Positions 7,092 through 60,643 of a stretch of DNA of 64,000 nt are shown here, in pieces; the stretch's first letter is position 1, and every line of letters begins with the position of its first letter. The notes beneath the pieces are model-generated. The model was given only the letters and a program-made list of their open reading frames with translations. It was not told the origin of the DNA and ran no database searches. This stretch comes from an uncultured Actinomycetota bacterium (GTDB taxonomy: Bacteria > Actinomycetota > Actinomycetes > JACCUZ01), in the NCBI GenBank assembly GCA_963784645.1, contig CAWARY010000005.1:178656-242655 (forward strand), in the 5' to 3' direction. A program made the translations under genes and the position numbers.

Positions 7092-7138
7092 GTTCACTCG
7101 AGTCACACAAGTCACAGGCGTCACAGCGTGGCGTCAAG
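7092..7138. promoter_or_regulatory. Array of 4-5 (G)TCACA half-sites at about 10-bp phasing, upstream of the STAS gene
   Basis: GTTCAC-N4-GTCACA-N3-GTCACA-N3-GTCACA-N7-GTCAAG, read directly in the 368-bp intergenic region. Confidence 0.3.
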
Positions 7139-7244
7139 AATTCCTCAAGTCCTCGCTCTACCGTCAGGAACCACGAGAACGACGGCAACCTCGCCTCGCT
7201 CTCGCGCGTCTACTGGTACGAGAAGCAGGGTGGGGGTGACCGGG

Positions 7245-12988: not shown

Positions 12989-13085
12989 AGCGCCCTCCGG
13001 GTGCGGCACCCCGGGGGAGGCAGGCTGCGGGCCATCTTTGCCAAGAAGTGTTGGCAAAGGAGTGTTGGCATGGCATCCTCGGGGC

Positions 13086-13658
13086 ATGGCCGACCGCTTC
13101 CTCGACGTCTCCGACCCGCTGGCGCTGCGCGCCCTGGCCCACCCGCTGCGCGTCCGGCTGCTGCGGCTGGTCCGCGAGCACCGGCCGGTGACCAACGCCG
13201 AGCTGGCGGCGCTGGTGGGGGAGTCGACCGCGAACGTGAGCTACCACCTCTCGGTGCTGGCCCGGCACGGCTTCGTGGAGCCGGACCCCACGCCCGGCGC
13301 CACCCGCCGGCACAAGCCGTGGCGCACGACGTACGACCGGATGCGGATGCACTCGAGCGAGGGCGCCACGCCGCTGGAGAGCTCCGGCGGCGGTGCGCTC
13401 GCGGCGCTGCTGGCCGACGACCGCGCGACGCAGGACGCCTACCTGGCGGCGCCGAGCGCGCCGGAGGGCAGCACGTGGGACGCCGCCGTCTTCCAGATCT
13501 CCCGGCTGGTGCTCGACGCCGCGCGTGCCGAGGAGCTCGCCACCGAGGTGAGCGCCCTGCTCGACCGCTACCACGGCGACGCCGACCCCGGCCCGGACGA
13601 GGCACGGTTCGCCGTGTCGTTCGTGGCCGTCCCGGTCGGCGAGGGGGTGCCGCGATGA
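13086..13658 (+). CDS. ArsR/SmtB-family HTH transcriptional regulator
   Basis: MADRFLDVSDPLALRALAHPLRVRLLRLVREHRPVTNAELAALVGESTANVSYHLSVLARHGFV. It overlaps the MFS start (ATGA). Confidence 0.75.
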   Translation: MADRFLDVSDPLALRALAHPLRVRLLRLVREHRPVTNAELAALVGESTANVSYHLSVLARHGFVEPDPTPGATRRHKPWRTTYDRMRMHSSEGATPLESSGGGALAALLADDRATQDAYLAAPSAPEGSTWDAAVFQISRLVLDAARAEELATEVSALLDRYHGDADPGPDEARFAVSFVAVPVGEGVPR

Positions 13659-14911
13659 GTCCGCTCACCGGCCCGCTCCGGCGTCGCGACGTGCGGTTGC
13701 TGATCACCGGGTCGACGGTGTCCCTGGTCGGCGACGGCATCTACGGCATCGCGATGGCGGTGGCCGTCCTGCACCTCACCGGCAGCGCCACCGCCCTGGC
13801 GGCGATGGCGGTCGTGAACCTCGTGCCGCGGGTGGCCTTCGGGCTGATGGGCGGCGTGCTGGCCGACCGGCTCAGCCGCCGGGCGATCCTCGCGGTATGC
13901 GACCTGGTGCGGCTCGTCGTGGTCGCCGCCCTCGGTGCGCTGCTGCTCGCCGGTGACCCGCCGCTGTGGCTGCTGCTGGTGCTGGTCGCGCCGCTGGGTG
14001 CCGCCTCCGGTGCTGCGAACCCGGCCTTCAGCGCGATCCTGCCGGACCTCGTCGACGAGGAGGAGCTGGTCGCCACCGGCGGCCTGCTCGGCACGGTCAG
14101 TCCGATGGCGCAGATGGTGGTCGGCCCGGCCGTCGGCGGTGTGCTGGCGGCCTGGCACCCGGGGGCGGCGCTGCTCGTCGACGCCGCGACGTTCGCCGTG
14201 TCGGCCTGGTGCGTGCTGCTGCTCCGCCCGCCCGTGCTGCACGCGCCGGGCGAGGGCCCCCGGCCGCTGCCGTGGGCCGACTTCCGGGAGGGACTGGCCT
14301 ACGTCCGGCGCACGCCGTGGCTCGCCGTCAACCTGCTCTCCGGGCTCGTCATCACCTTCACCGTGTCCGGGACCATGCAGATGCTCCCGGTGCTGGTCTC
14401 CCGCGGCTACGGCGCACCGGTCGCGAGCTTCGGCTACCTGATCGCCGCGGGCGGGGTCGCCGCCACCGTCGCAGCGGCCGTCGTCGGCTCCCGGCCGCGC
14501 CCCCGGCGCCCGCTGGCGACGTCGTACGCGACGTACGCCCTGGGCCTGGGCGCCGTCGCCGGCCTGGGCGTCGCGCCGGGGCCGGTGGTCGGCGCGGTGT
14601 TCATGGTGGTGTTCTTCGTCGGTGCGACGGCGGGCAACGTGCTGCAGGACAGCGTCCTGGGCTCCCGGGTGCCCCGGGAGCTGCGCGGCCGGGTCGGGTC
14701 GCTCGACTGGGTCGCGGCGACGGCGGCCGCTCCGCTCTCGGTCGTGGTCGCCGCGCTCTCGGCCGACCATGCCGGCATCCGCCCGACGTACGTCGTGGCC
14801 GGCCTGGCCGCCGCCCTGTGCTCGCTCGCGGGGCTGGTGCTGCTGCGCCGCACCGGCGAGCCGACCGACACCCCGGCCCCGTCCGCCACGGCCCTGCAGT
14901 CGATCACGTAA
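13655..14911 (+). CDS. MFS transporter
   Basis: 418 aa, polytopic. It appears translationally coupled to the ArsR regulator. Confidence 0.85.
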   Translation: MSPLTGPLRRRDVRLLITGSTVSLVGDGIYGIAMAVAVLHLTGSATALAAMAVVNLVPRVAFGLMGGVLADRLSRRAILAVCDLVRLVVVAALGALLLAGDPPLWLLLVLVAPLGAASGAANPAFSAILPDLVDEEELVATGGLLGTVSPMAQMVVGPAVGGVLAAWHPGAALLVDAATFAVSAWCVLLLRPPVLHAPGEGPRPLPWADFREGLAYVRRTPWLAVNLLSGLVITFTVSGTMQMLPVLVSRGYGAPVASFGYLIAAGGVAATVAAAVVGSRPRPRRPLATSYATYALGLGAVAGLGVAPGPVVGAVFMVVFFVGATAGNVLQDSVLGSRVPRELRGRVGSLDWVAATAAAPLSVVVAALSADHAGIRPTYVVAGLAAALCSLAGLVLLRRTGEPTDTPAPSATALQSIT

Positions 14912-14981
14912 ACGTGATCCACCGTCTCCTCACACGGGTTGCACGCCGTGCAAGGCGCATGTCGACCACGTTTACGTGATC
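14902..14981. repeat. Nested dyad-symmetry element: outer arms GATCACGTAAACGTGATCC / ACCACGTTTACGTGATC around an inner palindrome TTGCACGCCGTGCAA
   Basis: Read directly. It overlaps the MFS stop codon and lies between the convergent MFS and nucS genes. Confidence 0.5.
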
Positions 14982-14989
14982 GCCGGACG

Positions 14990-15041
14990 AGGGGGGAACG
15001 GGGCCGGACGAGGAGCGGGGCGGGGGCGGGGGGGGCGGGGG
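14990..15041. other. G-run tract (GGGGGG, GGGG, GGGG, GGGGG, GGGGGGGG, GGGGG), potential G-quadruplex; C-rich on the nucS strand
   Basis: Six G-runs of 4 or more fall within 52 nt, immediately 3' of the nucS stop. Confidence 0.4.
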
Positions 15042-15713
15042 TCAGAACAGGCGGGCGCCGACGTCGTCGACACCGCGCAGCGCGTCGTAGTCGAGGACGA
15101 CGCAGTCGATGCCGCGGTCGGTGGCCAGGACCCGGGCCTGCGGCTTGATCTCCTGGGCGGCGAACACGCCGCGTACCGGCATCAGGTGCGGGTCGCGGTT
15201 GAGCAGCTCGAGGTAGCGGGTGAGCTGCTCGACGCCGTCGATCTCGCCGCGCCGCTTGATCTCGATCGCCACGGTCGCCCCGCTGCGGTCGCGAGCCAGG
15301 AGGTCGACCGGACCGATCGCCGTCGGGTACTCGCGGCGCACCAGCCGCCAGCCGGCGCCGAGGGTCTCGATCTGGTCGGCGAGCAGCGCCTGCAGGTGGG
15401 CCTCGACACCGTCCTTCACCAGTCCCGGGTCGACGCCGAGCTGGTGACTGGTGTCGTCCAGGACCTCCTCGACCGTGATGACCAGCTGCTCGCCGCCCTT
15501 GTTCGTGACGGTCCAGACGCCCTCGTCCGGACCGGTGCCGACGCGCAGCGTGCACGGCGGCGTCATCCACATCAGCGGCTTGTAGCCGCCGGCGTCGGAG
15601 TGCACGAGCACCGAGCCGTCGGACTTGACCAGCAGCAGCCGGGGAGCGCTCGGGAGGTGGGCGGTCAGCCGGCCGACGTAGTCGACCGAGCACCGGGCGA
15701 TGACCATCCGCAC
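15042..15713 (-). CDS. nucS: Endonuclease NucS (mismatch-specific endonuclease)
   Basis: 223 aa, [40 protein letters not shown]..., the conserved NucS family. Confidence 0.9.
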
Positions 15714-15724
15714 GAGGGGCGAGG

Positions 15725-16111
15725 CTAGCCGACCGGCGGGGCCGCCTCGTCAGCGGCGAGCATGTCCTCCAGCTCGAGGAGCCGCAGCAGCCGCAGCACG
15801 CTGCGCCGGCAGTGCCGCAGCTCGACGCTCCCGGAGCGCTTGGCGAGCATCGCCCGGGCGAGCAGCAGCGGCGAGATCCCCGAGGCGTCGGCGAAGCCCA
15901 CGCCGCTCATGTCGACCACCAGGCGGGTGCACAGGGGTGCGCGCCGGGCCGCGAGCGCCTGGTCGACGACGGCCTGCAGCAGCGGCGAACTGGTGATGTC
16001 GAGCTCGCCGTCCAGGCGGACGGTCACCGTGGCCCCCTCCGGCCGGACGTCGACGGCAAGCGTCGACTGAGCGCTGCGCAAGCCCCGTGCTCCCTCTCCC
16101 ACGACGGCCAC
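15725..16111 (-). CDS. STAS-domain anti-sigma factor antagonist (start uncertain, GTG)
   Basis: The C-terminal 110 aa, [56 protein letters not shown], are SpoIIAA-like. The upstream ORF extension is GC noise. Confidence 0.55.
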
Positions 16112-60526: not shown

Positions 60527-60539
60527 CCCCACACCATCT

Positions 60540-60607
60540 CGTTTGCGACCTCACTCCCCGACACGCCGGGATGGCCGCCGGCGTGTCCGTGAGCCAGGTC
60601 GCAAACG
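60540..60607. repeat. Family-2 palindromic intergenic element, second copy
   Basis: CGTTTGCGACCTCACTCCCCGACACGCCGGG-ATGGCCG-CCGGCGTGTCCGTGAGCCAGGTCGCAAACG, lying between the glgP and glgX stops. Confidence 0.6.
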
Positions 60608-60643
60608 AGCGAGAGGGGTGGGCGGGCGGTGGGCCGCCGGACG

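What the first reader, a model, noticed from the sequence alone, without database searches (positions are those of the whole stretch)
14902..15041. 80-bp nested cruciform followed by a 52-nt G-run tract between convergent MFS and nucS genes
The outer arms GATCACGTAAACGTGATCC (14902-14920, overlapping the MFS stop) and ACCACGTTTACGTGATC (14965-14981) match 15/16 in inverted orientation. Each is itself a near-palindrome of the type CACGT-AAA-ACGTG. An inner palindrome TTGCACGCCGTGCAA sits at 14939-14953. It is followed by six G-runs of 4-8 (14990-15041), which are C-runs on the nucS sense strand right after its stop. This is far more structure than a simple terminator needs. Candidate roles are a bidirectional terminator plus G-quadruplex, a binding site for a dimeric regulator (CACGTnnnACGTG resembles bHLH/E-box-like or MerR-like dyads), or a structured small RNA.
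Basis: seen in the sequence. Interest (0 to 1): 0.65.

Follow-up and report, generated by a model that had tools for sequence, protein, structure and literature searches.

The report
Dispersed palindromic repeat with partner gene
The hairpin and G-run tract between nucS and the transporter gene is one copy of an apparently undescribed 82-bp palindromic repeat scattered through the genomes of uncultured soil and peat actinomycetes. Its conserved 18-bp core always brackets one AbiEi-like DNA-binding, nuclease-like gene, much as REP repeats bracket their RAYT transposase.

Summary
It is not a locus-specific cruciform or operator.

It is one copy of a dispersed 82-bp element: an 18-bp dyad GAYCACGT-WW-ACGTGRTC, a 44-nt hairpin, and a second dyad. 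The dyad centres are always 62 bp apart. C-rich tracts run from the neighbouring stop codons to the dyads.

The sister MAG (NucS 98%) keeps this copy and has at least 14 more at unrelated gene 3' ends. Relatives at 93% and 87% NucS identity lack it, so it is an insertion. It now supplies the last codons and the stop codon of the MFS gene. The G-run tract is the fast-changing flank of the element.

In 8 of 8 lineages fetched by protein homology alone, the dyad+hairpin module brackets a ~325-aa gene in inverted orientation. That gene has an AbiEi-type wHTH and a C-terminal PD-(D/E)xK-like fold, and no AbiEii toxin neighbour. Across 57 modules the hairpin covaries strongly while the dyad stays fixed in sequence.

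Best reading: a REP/REPIN- or MITE-like element whose dyad is the binding site of that protein, and which locally acts as a transcript-end hairpin. Binding, mobilisation and termination are all inferred. Novelty: new variant of a known kind.

The parts
14901..14982 (.). 82-bp core of the repeat element (dyad, 44-nt hairpin, dyad)
   Evidence: All 13 full-length family members are exactly 82 nt, with 89% mean column identity. nhmmer profiles find only this copy in the window.
14902..14919 (.). Dyad 1, GATCACGT-AA-ACGTGATC. A perfect 8+2+8 palindrome that carries the MFS stop codon TAA at 14909-14911.
   Evidence: The same 19-mer occurs at at least 15 loci of the sister MAG and in five other actinomycete MAGs.
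14920..14963 (.). 44-nt inner hairpin. This copy is degenerate. It includes the palindrome TTGCACGCCGTGCAA at 14939-14953.
   Evidence: The hairpin columns covary across 57 modules of the superfamily.
14964..14981 (.). Dyad 2, GACCACGT-TT-ACGTGATC. Its centre lies 62 bp from the centre of dyad 1.
   Evidence: The same 62-bp spacing is seen in all full copies and in the variant soil family (L088, L090, L106).
14983..15041 (-). C-rich, G-poor tract on the nucS sense strand (the G-runs on the + strand). It runs from the nucS stop codon to dyad 2 and contains a 21-bp tandem duplication (GCCGGACGAGG at 14982-14992 and 15003-15013).
   Evidence: Stop-to-dyad spacers of the family average C 0.58 and G 0.23, against 0.40 and 0.35 for ordinary gene 3' flanks (p = 6e-10). 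The tract is shorter in the sister MAG.
14892..14901 (+). Conserved outer flank CCCTGCAGTC (family consensus CNGCAGT/C next to the dyad). Here it is read as the codons for L-Q-S of the MFS tail.
   Evidence: One search shows the same flank in L020, L047, L022, L056, L008 and L050. One search gives the translation ...TALQSIT*.
13652..14911 (+). MFS transporter gene. Its last codons and its stop codon are supplied by the element.
   Evidence: Relatives have a different C-terminal tail: L002 ends ...EPSRA*, and in L086 the MFS gene overlaps nucS.
15042..15707 (-). nucS (endonuclease NucS/EndoMS). Its native stop codon is followed directly by the C-rich tract.

Best explanation
The feature is one copy of a dispersed, non-coding palindromic repeat element of the REP/REPIN or MITE kind. 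It is specific to a group of uncultured soil and peat actinomycetes.

Architecture. The unit is two copies of an 18-20-bp dyad, (T/G)CGA(T/C)CACGT-WW-ACGTG(A/G)TCG, exactly 62 bp apart (about six helical turns). They bracket a 44-nt hairpin. On each side a C-rich, G-poor tract fills the space back to the neighbouring stop codon.

The partner gene. In every genome examined, the same dyad+hairpin module, with dyads outward, brackets a single ~325-aa gene. That gene encodes an AbiEi-type winged-helix domain, the AbiEi core domain and a C-terminal PD-(D/E)xK-like (Vsr / I-Bth0305I-like) fold. The 82-bp form is what remains if the two end modules of that cassette collapse onto their shared palindromic hairpin.

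Proposed working, with shown and inferred steps marked:
1. Inferred from the family's known behaviour: the wHTH protein binds the dyads.
2. Inferred: the protein, or host recombination acting on the palindromes, copies end modules to new sites. The copies that survive are those at gene 3' ends.
3. Shown by comparison: a copy entered the nucS/MFS spacer in the common ancestor of this genome and its sister MAG. It replaced the native spacer and the MFS C-terminal codons.
4. Inferred: the C-rich tract plus the long stem now acts as a bidirectional transcript-end or stabiliser structure for the two convergent genes. The C-rich tract could serve as a Rho-loading site.
For: Dispersed family
- The 19-mer CGATCACGTAAACGTGRTC gives 58 loci among 185,579 species genomes. 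They are concentrated in six actinomycete MAGs, with at least 15 loci in the sister MAG JBBRVW.
- The flanks are unrelated between loci, but the 82-nt core is 89% identical.

Position
- 20 of 22 copies have an incoming gene that ends 10-85 nt away. About half lie between convergent genes.
- Stop-to-dyad spacers are C-rich (C 0.58, G 0.23, n = 28; controls 0.40 and 0.35, n = 50; p = 6e-10). 22 of 28 start with CC right after the stop codon.

Insertion at this locus
- The element is present in the window and in JBBRVW (NucS 98%, 2 substitutions in the core).
- The spacer is a different 58-nt hairpin in L002/L003 (NucS 93%). There is no spacer in L086 (87%).
- The MFS tail ...LQSIT* is encoded by the element.

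Partner gene
- L058 and L035 were found through the dyad. Both carry 40%-identical 324-aa AbiEi_4 proteins bracketed by inverted modules.
- Homologs fetched by protein identity only (P0122, P0125, P0134, P0139, P0137, P0148) are bracketed by the dyad in every locus. Three genomic contexts are represented: GT87/Ala_racemase_N, aldolase, and ftsZ/ftsQ.
- Background for the strict dyad pattern is 4 stray hits in 648 kb.
- The hairpin type of the dispersed copies matches the hairpin type that flanks the gene in the same genome: type A in JBBRVW, type B in PLCK.

Prediction test
- The variant dyad TCGACCACGTWWACGTGGTCGA gave 32 soil contigs in JGI metagenomes. All have the same dyad+hairpin geometry. 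Three have dyad pairs at 62 bp. One (L103) carries the gene.

Structure versus sequence
- In 57 modules the hairpin is 78.6% paired, against 56.6% in shuffles (0 of 500 reach it). There are 227 double-sided changes against 98. The covariation score is 0.52, against 0.18 for shuffles and 0.12-0.18 for slid controls.
- The dyad stays nearly invariant.

Protein
- The AF2 model has pLDDT 92.
- Foldseek matches AbiEi 6y8q (E = 1e-6) and Rv2827c 1zel for roughly the first two thirds. It matches the I-Bth0305I catalytic domain (prob 0.89, TMt 0.60) and Vsr for the C-terminal ~100 aa.
- Acidic and basic residues of the C-terminal domain are invariant in 50 homologs.
- AbiEi-family proteins bind pairs of inverted repeats through the N-terminal wHTH (PMC7319586).

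Local structure
- The nucS-sense RNA 14830-15047 folds into one long hairpin in which the C-tract pairs with the G-rich antisense of the MFS end (-119.9 kcal/mol, z = -4.6).
Against: - No binding, cleavage or transposition has been shown. The link between protein and dyad is genomic association only.
- The partner gene is syntenic and vertically inherited over 55-100% identity. It behaves like a resident gene rather than an active transposon.
- No target-site duplication was seen.
- The nuclease assignment of the C-terminal domain is weak (Foldseek E = 0.32). There is no Pfam, NCBIfam or PDB sequence match.
- Within the type-A family there is no compensatory evolution beyond descent from a palindromic ancestor.
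- G.T and A.C mismatches are equally frequent (51 against 53), so nothing shows an RNA-level function on one strand.
- There is no U-tract terminator.
- Copy number is only tens per genome, far below classical REPs. It could be counted only through exact 19-mers in draft MAGs.
- The source genome itself could not be surveyed. There is only one copy in 64 kb.
Confidence: 0.7

Rival explanations
1. Regulon or roadblock model. The AbiEi-like protein is an ordinary sequence-specific DNA-binding protein. The dispersed dyads are its chromosomal binding sites, for example protein roadblocks that help end transcription at gene 3' ends, or nucleoid-organising sites. The sites are not mobile. They spread slowly or arose by duplication and are kept by host selection.
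For: - The partner gene is syntenic and vertically inherited.
- The dyad is conserved in sequence across lineages while everything around it changes.
- The 62-bp spacing puts the two dyads on one face of the helix, which suits cooperative binding.
- AbiEi proteins are known autoregulators that bind inverted-repeat pairs.
- No target-site duplication or transposase fold was found.
Against: - Whole 82-nt units, hairpin and outer flanks included, are nearly identical at unrelated loci. That indicates copying of a unit, not convergent binding sites.
- There is presence/absence polymorphism at the nucS spacer.
- The cassette occurs in three unrelated genomic contexts, including between ftsZ and ftsQ.
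- The hairpin type of dispersed copies follows the hairpin type at the gene's own ends in each genome.
Confidence: 0.2
2. Plain bidirectional terminator. The hairpin is just the transcript-end structure of the convergent nucS and MFS genes. The similarity to other loci reflects a common terminator design of this organism, with no protein partner.
For: - It sits between convergent genes.
- The stem is long and stable, with z = -3.5 to -4.6 on the nucS strand.
- Relatives have a different simple hairpin at the same place.
- A second, unrelated palindrome with a C-tract and a G-tract sits between another convergent pair at 60527-60643.
Against: - No U-tail, and the terminator scan finds nothing.
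- A 19-nt exact sequence shared among dozens of loci and six MAGs, and always bracketing one gene family, is not explained by terminator function.
- There is no strand bias of wobble pairs.
Confidence: 0.07
3. Locus-specific operator plus G-quadruplex. A dimeric regulator binds the two dyads to control nucS or the HTH-MFS operon, and the G-runs form a regulatory G4.
For: - The sites have dyad symmetry.
- A G4-capable motif lies at 15017-15041, and the G-run density is unique in the window.
Against: - The sites lie downstream of both genes.
- The same unit occurs next to unrelated genes.
- It is absent from the same spacer in close relatives.
- The G-tract differs in length and run structure even in the sister genome, and it is only the generic C/G-rich flank of the family.
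Confidence: 0.03

Closest known systems
REP / REPIN elements and their RAYT (TnpA-REP) genes in Proteobacteria
   Same: - Short palindromic repeats dispersed in extragenic DNA, mostly downstream of genes and between convergent or co-directional ORFs.
- Often found as pairs that fold into a larger hairpin.
- A single, vertically inherited partner gene flanked by the same repeats in inverted orientation.
- The repeat type co-varies with the partner gene's own flanks.
(REP features from PMC3733652, and PMC5581495, listed. Features here.)
   Different: - The partner protein is not a HUH/Y1 transposase. It is an AbiEi-type wHTH protein with a PD-(D/E)xK-like C-terminus.
- There is no unpaired GTAG or CGTC tag.
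- The conserved part is a perfect double-strand dyad rather than an imperfect stem-loop.
- Copy number is tens per genome, not hundreds.
- The hosts are Actinomycetes, which the REP survey I read does not mention.
MITEs with long terminal inverted repeats, such as the Correia elements of Neisseria (from my own knowledge)
   Same: - About 80-150 bp and non-coding.
- Terminal inverted repeats.
- Intergenic, and able to fold into one long hairpin in transcripts.
- Can supply transcript ends and alter gene termini.
- Interpretable as an internally deleted derivative of a gene-carrying parent.
   Different: - No recognisable transposase in the parent cassette.
- No target-site duplication seen.
- The terminal repeats are themselves palindromes.
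- The parent is single-copy and syntenic.
AbiEi antitoxins (S. agalactiae AbiEi, M. tuberculosis Rv2827c) and their operators
   Same: - The N-terminal wHTH plus core domain of the partner protein matches AbiEi and Rv2827c structurally and matches Pfam AbiEi_4 and AbiEi_1.
- These proteins bind pairs of inverted repeats near their own gene (PMC7319586).
   Different: - No AbiEii/DUF1814 toxin gene is adjacent.
- There is an extra C-terminal nuclease-like domain.
- The repeats lie on both sides of the gene, outside strong hairpins, and are dispersed through the genome.
Tail-less ('I-shaped') hairpin terminators and Rho-dependent terminators of high-GC Actinobacteria (from my own knowledge)
   Same: - A GC-rich long stem without a U-tract between convergent genes.
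- A C-rich, G-poor tract upstream, as in Rho-loading sites.
   Different: - The sequence is conserved and repeated.
- It is tied to a specific gene family.
- Termination has not been tested.

Membership tests
REP/REPIN-RAYT system | Short (20-40 bp) palindromic units present in many copies in extragenic DNA, mostly downstream of ORFs | tested here: met
   The 18-20-bp dyad plus hairpin occurs at at least 15 loci in the sister MAG and in five other MAGs. 20 of 22 copies lie 10-85 nt after a stop codon. Copy number is only tens per genome.
REP/REPIN-RAYT system | Units paired in opposite orientation so that they fold into a larger hairpin (REPIN) | tested here: inconclusive
   Two dyads at a fixed 62-bp spacing flank a hairpin. 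Each dyad is self-palindromic, and 9 of 13 copies carry the same central AA in both dyads, so orientation is not defined.
REP/REPIN-RAYT system | Unpaired GTAG or CGTC tag at one end of the palindrome | tested here: not met
   Position frequencies around the dyad give (G)(T)(C)GA(T/C)C as part of the paired palindrome. There is no GTAG or unpaired CGTC tag.
REP/REPIN-RAYT system | Partner gene is a RAYT (HUH/Y1 transposase, Pfam Y1_Tnp) flanked by the repeats | tested here: not met
   A flanked partner gene exists in 8 of 8 lineages. It is AbiEi_4/AbiEi_1 plus a PD-(D/E)xK-like fold, with no Y1_Tnp match.
MITE (non-autonomous derivative of a transposon) | Terminal inverted repeats shared with a longer, gene-carrying parent element | tested here: met
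   The cassette ends (dyad + hairpin + GCCGTGNGAAG) in L058, L066 and L069 match the dispersed 82-bp and one-ended copies of the same lineage.
MITE (non-autonomous derivative of a transposon) | Target-site duplication, and a parent that encodes a recognised transposase | tested here: not met
   No direct repeats are seen at the ends. The flanks are C-rich on one side and G-rich on the other. The only ORF of the cassette has no transposase domain.
MITE (non-autonomous derivative of a transposon) | Insertion polymorphism between related genomes | tested here: met
   The nucS/MFS spacer is filled in the window and in JBBRVW. It is a different 58-nt hairpin in L002/L003 and is absent in L086. This is a single locus only.
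AbiE type IV toxin-antitoxin operator | Inverted repeats in the promoter of an abiEi-abiEii operon, bound by AbiEi | tested here: not met
   No AbiEii/DUF1814 gene is adjacent. The repeats lie on both sides of the gene and at distant loci. Binding was not testable.
Intrinsic (Rho-independent) terminator | GC-rich stem-loop followed by a U-tract | tested here: not met
   The terminator scan finds none at 14500-15300. There is no T-run after the stem on either strand.
G-quadruplex regulatory element | Four or more G-runs, conserved in position among relatives | tested here: inconclusive
   The motif is present at 15017-15041, with six G-runs in 52 nt. The tract differs in the sister genome and is absent in the next relatives. 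Folding was not testable.
Known RNA families (Rfam 15) | Match to a covariance model | tested here: not met
   No hit with E up to 1 in 14000-16000 on either strand.

The most novel reading that the evidence does not exclude
The AbiEi-like wHTH / PD-(D/E)xK-like protein is the dedicated partner of these repeats. It recognises the double-stranded dyad next to a hairpin or cruciform and cuts or nicks there, and so copies or maintains the elements. That would make it a functional analogue of RAYT and REPINs built on a completely different protein fold, widespread in soil Actinomycetes. It would be the first REP-like system with a non-HUH partner. It would also give a function to the many orphan 'AbiEi antitoxin domain' proteins of Actinobacteria that have no toxin.
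Probability: 0.35. Interest if true: 0.8.

Novelty: new variant of a known kind. Interest (0 to 1): 0.62.

Why it matters
REP- and MITE-like repeats shape transcription ends, mRNA stability and genome rearrangement. The best-documented repeat-partner system I know of is REP/RAYT, found mainly in Proteobacteria.

Here a repeat family in uncultured high-GC soil actinomycetes shows the same population-genetic signature: a single vertically inherited gene bracketed by its own repeats, and tens of dispersed copies at gene 3' ends. The partner protein, however, is an AbiEi-type winged-helix protein with a nuclease-like tail.

If the link is functional, three things follow:
- Orphan AbiEi-like genes gain a role.
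- There is a second, independent origin of a repeat/partner 'symbiosis'.
- There is a defined 18-bp site and a defined protein to test in vitro.

It also matters for annotation. The element rewrites gene ends, as with the MFS stop codon here. It also creates G/C homopolymer tracts that change quickly between close relatives.

Tried and rejected
- Rfam at a permissive threshold over 14000-16000 gave nothing.
- The consensus promoter and terminator scan gave nothing.
- Exact-protein look-ups of the window's NucS failed with either start, so the source genome is not in the collection.
- A viral-contig scan for the dyad gave four hits, all with self-complementary AT or TA centres. These are few enough to be chance and were not examined further.
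- Seven Acidobacteriaceae hits of the 19-mer lie in one conserved sequence context. In the one I checked, L026, that context is the carbamoyl-phosphate synthase large subunit gene. I read these hits as a coding coincidence, not as elements.
- Literature searches for the motif, for actinobacterial REP or MITE elements and for AbiEi+DUF559 found nothing relevant.
- NCBIfam, a PDB sequence search and a profile search of the partner protein found nothing for its C-terminal domain.
- Covariation within the 13 type-A copies showed none beyond shuffles, so the 80-bp 'outer stem' is not under detectable selection.
- A wobble-pair strand bias would have pointed to an RNA function on one strand. There is none: 51 G.T against 53 A.C.
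- Comparing the fold energies of the two strands across copies showed no consistent direction.
- A loose dyad pattern (degenerate centre, up to 3 mismatches) picks up GC-rich coding background. It was dropped in favour of the strict pattern.
- L022 looked like a possible orthologous nucS copy in another MAG, but tblastn shows it is a different locus.
- The second palindrome at 60527-60643 has no copies in the fetched loci.
Full report
**1. The observation**

The sequence is as described.
- GATCACGTAAACGTGATCC lies at 14902-14920 and overlaps the TAA stop (14909-14911) of an MFS transporter gene.
- GACCACGTTTACGTGATC lies at 14964-14981.
- TTGCACGCCGTGCAA lies at 14939-14953.
- Six G-runs of 4-8 lie between 14991 and 15041. 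They end at the stop codon of nucS on the minus strand (15042-15044).
- Pfam confirms both genes.

The pattern is not chance.
- The 16-mer core with up to 2 mismatches occurs only at these two places in 64 kb, against 0.11 expected.
- The complementarity extends to 37-nt arms.
- No other 52-nt stretch of the window has even four G-runs of 4 or more.
- Single-strand folds are far more stable than shuffles: DNA z = -4.0 and nucS-sense RNA z = -3.5.

One correction matters. Each 'outer arm' is itself a perfect 8+2+8 palindrome. Two copies of one palindrome are bound to look like both direct and inverted repeats of each other.

**2. It is a dispersed repeat, not a local structure**

I scanned one genome per species of GTDB for CGATCACGTAAACGTGRTC. 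This gave 58 loci. Most fall in six uncultured actinomycete MAGs:
- JBBRVW (La3_metabat2.260): at least 15 loci.
- DATBDW: 8.
- PLCK palsa_607: 8.
- JBDZVM: 7.
- CAWIJQ: 3.
- CAWALV: 1.

Seven Acidobacteriaceae hits lie in one conserved sequence context, which in the checked locus L026 is carB. I read them as a coding coincidence.

Printing the flanks shows a common unit in JBBRVW, DATBDW and the window:
- a stop codon;
- a C-rich, G-poor tract;
- GTCCGG or CNGCAGT;
- the dyad;
- a 44-nt hairpin with consensus GACYGTCGCCTTGCACGGGTTGCAACCCGTGCAAGGCGACRGTG;
- a second dyad.

All 13 full copies are exactly 82 nt, with 89% mean identity. Their flanking genes are unrelated. Other copies carry one dyad, the hairpin, and a short motif GCCGTGNGAAG in place of the second dyad. 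In the other four MAGs the same dyad sits next to a different hairpin of the same length (CCCCCGAGGACAGG...CCTGTCCTCGGGGG).

The window holds only this one copy.

**3. Position and flanks**

Of 22 type-A copies, 20 have at least one gene ending 10-85 nt away and reading towards the element. About half sit between convergent genes.

The spacers from stop codon to dyad are C-rich on the incoming strand. They average C 0.58 and G 0.23 (n = 28). Ordinary gene 3' flanks of the window average 0.40 and 0.35 (n = 50; Mann-Whitney p = 6e-10). In 22 of 28 spacers the sequence starts with CC directly after the stop codon.

It changes fast. The sister genome has a tract 27 nt shorter and lacks the window's 21-bp tandem duplication.

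In the window, the C-tract of the nucS transcript can pair with the G-rich antisense of the MFS 3' end. This extends the hairpin to about 180 nt (-119.9 kcal/mol, z = -4.6).

**4. It is an insertion at this locus**

The closest genome, JBBRVW, has NucS 98% and MFS 97% identical. It has the same element with two substitutions.

Two MAGs with 93% NucS identity keep the gene order. Their spacer is an unrelated 58-nt stretch with a simple hairpin, and their MFS C-terminus is different. A relative at 87% has nucS and MFS overlapping, with no spacer at all.

In the window, the last MFS codons and the stop (…L Q S I T *) are read from the element's outer flank and its first dyad.

**5. A partner gene**

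Two loci found only through the dyad carry 40%-identical 324-aa proteins with an N-terminal AbiEi_4 winged helix. These are L058 in JBBRVW and L035 in PLCK. Each protein gene is bracketed by two repeat modules in inverted orientation, with the dyads outward.

I then fetched homologs by protein identity alone, without reference to the dyad. Every locus with enough flank has the dyad on both sides:
- It lies 100-175 nt upstream of the start and 57-174 nt downstream of the stop.
- Each dyad has an adjacent hairpin.
- This holds in eight independent lineages at 55-100% protein identity.
- Three genomic contexts are represented: between GT87 and an Ala_racemase_N gene, after an aldolase gene, and between ftsZ and ftsQ.

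The strict dyad pattern gives only four stray hits in 648 kb of fetched DNA. The association is therefore far beyond chance.

The hairpin type that flanks the gene is the hairpin type of the dispersed copies in the same genome. No AbiEii/DUF1814 toxin gene is adjacent.

The 82-bp form is what results if the two end modules recombine across their shared palindromic hairpin. The one-ended form, which carries the inner GCCGTGNGAAG motif, is a single cassette end.

**6. A prediction that held**

The gene in several lineages is flanked by a variant dyad (GACC…GGTC). I predicted that dispersed copies of that variant exist.

A scan of JGI metagenomes for TCGACCACGTWWACGTGGTCGA returned 32 soil contigs.
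- In all of them the dyad sits beside a ~40-nt hairpin of the same geometry.
- It often lies right after a stop codon.
- Three contigs have two dyads exactly 62 bp apart.
- One (L103) carries the AbiEi-like gene 78 nt from the dyad.

This is roughly one cassette per thirty dispersed copies.

**7. Structure against sequence**

An ungapped 68-column alignment of 57 non-redundant dyad+hairpin modules from all lineages shows the dyad nearly invariant while the hairpin turns over completely and stays paired:
- 78.6% of cells are paired, against 56.6% in shuffles (0 of 500 reach it).
- There are 227 double-sided changes, against 98.
- 16 of 17 pairs show compensatory changes.
- The covariation score is 0.52, against 0.18 in shuffles and 0.12-0.18 with slid partners.

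Palindromic DNA can keep its own symmetry by DNA-level processes, so this shows a constraint on symmetry or structure, not its level.

Within the 13 type-A copies there is no covariation beyond descent. In 9 of 13 the two dyads carry the same central AA, so the long 'outer stem' is not a selected structure.

G.T and A.C mismatches are equally common (51 against 53). Nothing points to an RNA that works from one strand only. There is no Rfam match and no U-tailed terminator.

**8. The protein**

An AlphaFold model built on 50 homologs is confident (pLDDT 92, pTM 0.88).

Foldseek against the PDB matches roughly residues 1-205 to S. agalactiae AbiEi (6y8q, E = 1e-6) and M. tuberculosis Rv2827c (1zel). 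The last ~100 residues resemble the catalytic domain of the homing endonuclease I-Bth0305I (prob 0.89, TM 0.60 over the target) and Vsr. These are PD-(D/E)xK-type nucleases. The model has the alpha-beta-beta-beta-alpha-beta order. D236, D245, E254, D256, K260, E278, K279, E282 and D283 are invariant.

This assignment is weak. No Pfam, NCBIfam or PDB sequence match covers that domain.

AbiEi and Rv2827c are monomers that bind pairs of 23-bp inverted repeats through the wHTH (PMC7319586). That makes dyad binding by this protein a reasonable inference, but it remains an inference.

**9. How it most likely works**

Shown:
- It is a dispersed, unit-like repeat.
- It inserted at this spacer in a recent ancestor.
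- It supplies the MFS stop codon.
- It is tied to one gene family.
- The dyad is conserved by sequence and the hairpin by structure.

Inferred, with my estimates:
- The AbiEi-like protein binds the dyads (about 0.6). The 62-bp spacing places two sites on one face of the helix.
- The protein takes part in copying or maintaining the elements (about 0.35).
- At this locus the C-rich tract plus the long stem ends or stabilises both convergent transcripts (about 0.5). The C-rich tract could act as a Rho-loading site, with the stem or a bound protein as the stop.

The main rival is that the protein is simply a DNA-binding factor and the dyads are its non-mobile chromosomal sites.

**10. Comparison with known systems**

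The closest analogue is REP/REPIN with RAYT. Shared features are small palindromes downstream of genes, paired units, and a single vertically inherited partner gene flanked by its repeats (PMC3733652; PMC5581495).

It fails two defining tests of that family. There is no GTAG or CGTC tag, and the partner is not a HUH/Y1 transposase. It therefore works like a REP system without being a member.

It also resembles MITEs, since it shares its ends with a gene-carrying parent and shows an insertion polymorphism. It lacks a recognisable transposase and a target duplication.

It is not an AbiE toxin-antitoxin operator, because there is no toxin and the sites are dispersed.

I found no paper that describes this motif, this repeat or this association.

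**11. Verdict**

The local copy is probably of minor consequence for nucS. The family it reveals is a new variant of a known kind and gives a directly testable protein-site pair. Interest: 0.62.

Noticed in passing
window 60527-60643: A second long palindrome with the same overall design lies between another convergent gene pair. It has a C-rich tract, the arms CTCGTTTGCGACCT...AGGTCGCAAACGAG around an inner GC hairpin, and a G-rich tract. It has no dyad of the nucS type and no copies in the 86 loci fetched up to that point.
   Followed up: partly
window 14982-15013: A 21-bp tandem duplication (GCCGGACGAGG at 14982-14992 and 15003-15013) lies inside the G-run tract. It is absent from the sister MAG (L001 5667-5700). 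The homopolymer-rich flank is therefore evolving by slippage or duplication.
   Followed up: partly
L058 1406-1488; L069 ~990-1010; L070 ~2440-2460; L035 ~1470-1490; L083 ~2940-2960: A conserved motif CTGTGGACRG lies 40-90 nt upstream of the AbiEi-like gene in all lineages, between the end-module hairpin and the start codon. It could be the promoter or the true autoregulatory operator.
   Followed up: no
L073-L082 (JGI soil contigs): In one lineage the AbiEi-like cassette with its two dyad modules sits between ftsZ and ftsQ, inside the cell-division (dcw) gene cluster. This is an unusual place for an inserted gene.
   Followed up: no
L039 6976-7120; L048 ~7124-7200; L046 2595-2680; L027 234-330: Arrays lie next to elements. 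L039 has dyad-hairpin-dyad-hairpin-dyad in tandem, like a BIME. L048 has repeated half-hairpins (GGCCTGTCCTCGGGGGTGTT)n. L046 has a (CTGACGG)n heptamer array in the stop-to-dyad spacer. L027 has an 18-21-nt G-rich tandem repeat.
   Followed up: no
L054 927-944; L056 258-275; L047 5820-5837: Perfect palindromes of a related form, GATCACGG-NN-CCGTGATC, occur in the same MAGs. L047 has GATCACGGTTGCGTGATC. They may be a second dyad variant or decayed copies.
   Followed up: no
L083 2848-2865 and 4057-4074: In this cassette each dyad is a hybrid. The outer half-site is GACC and the inner half-site is GATC, on both ends. This suggests that the two half-sites are read separately.
   Followed up: no
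window ~13080-14911 and L001 5770-7607: The MFS_3 transporter is co-transcribed with an upstream HTH_20/ArsR-like regulator, with overlapping stop and start. It is divergent from a DAO-family oxidase. This gene order, and nucS with a STAS-domain gene upstream, is conserved in all relatives fetched.
   Followed up: no
L006, L016, L025, L026, L031, L051, L059: The exact 19-mer also occurs in Acidobacteriaceae, in one conserved sequence context. In L026, the only locus checked, that context is the carB gene, where it encodes ...HVYVIE... I read these hits as a coding coincidence that would contaminate any naive motif census.
   Followed up: yes
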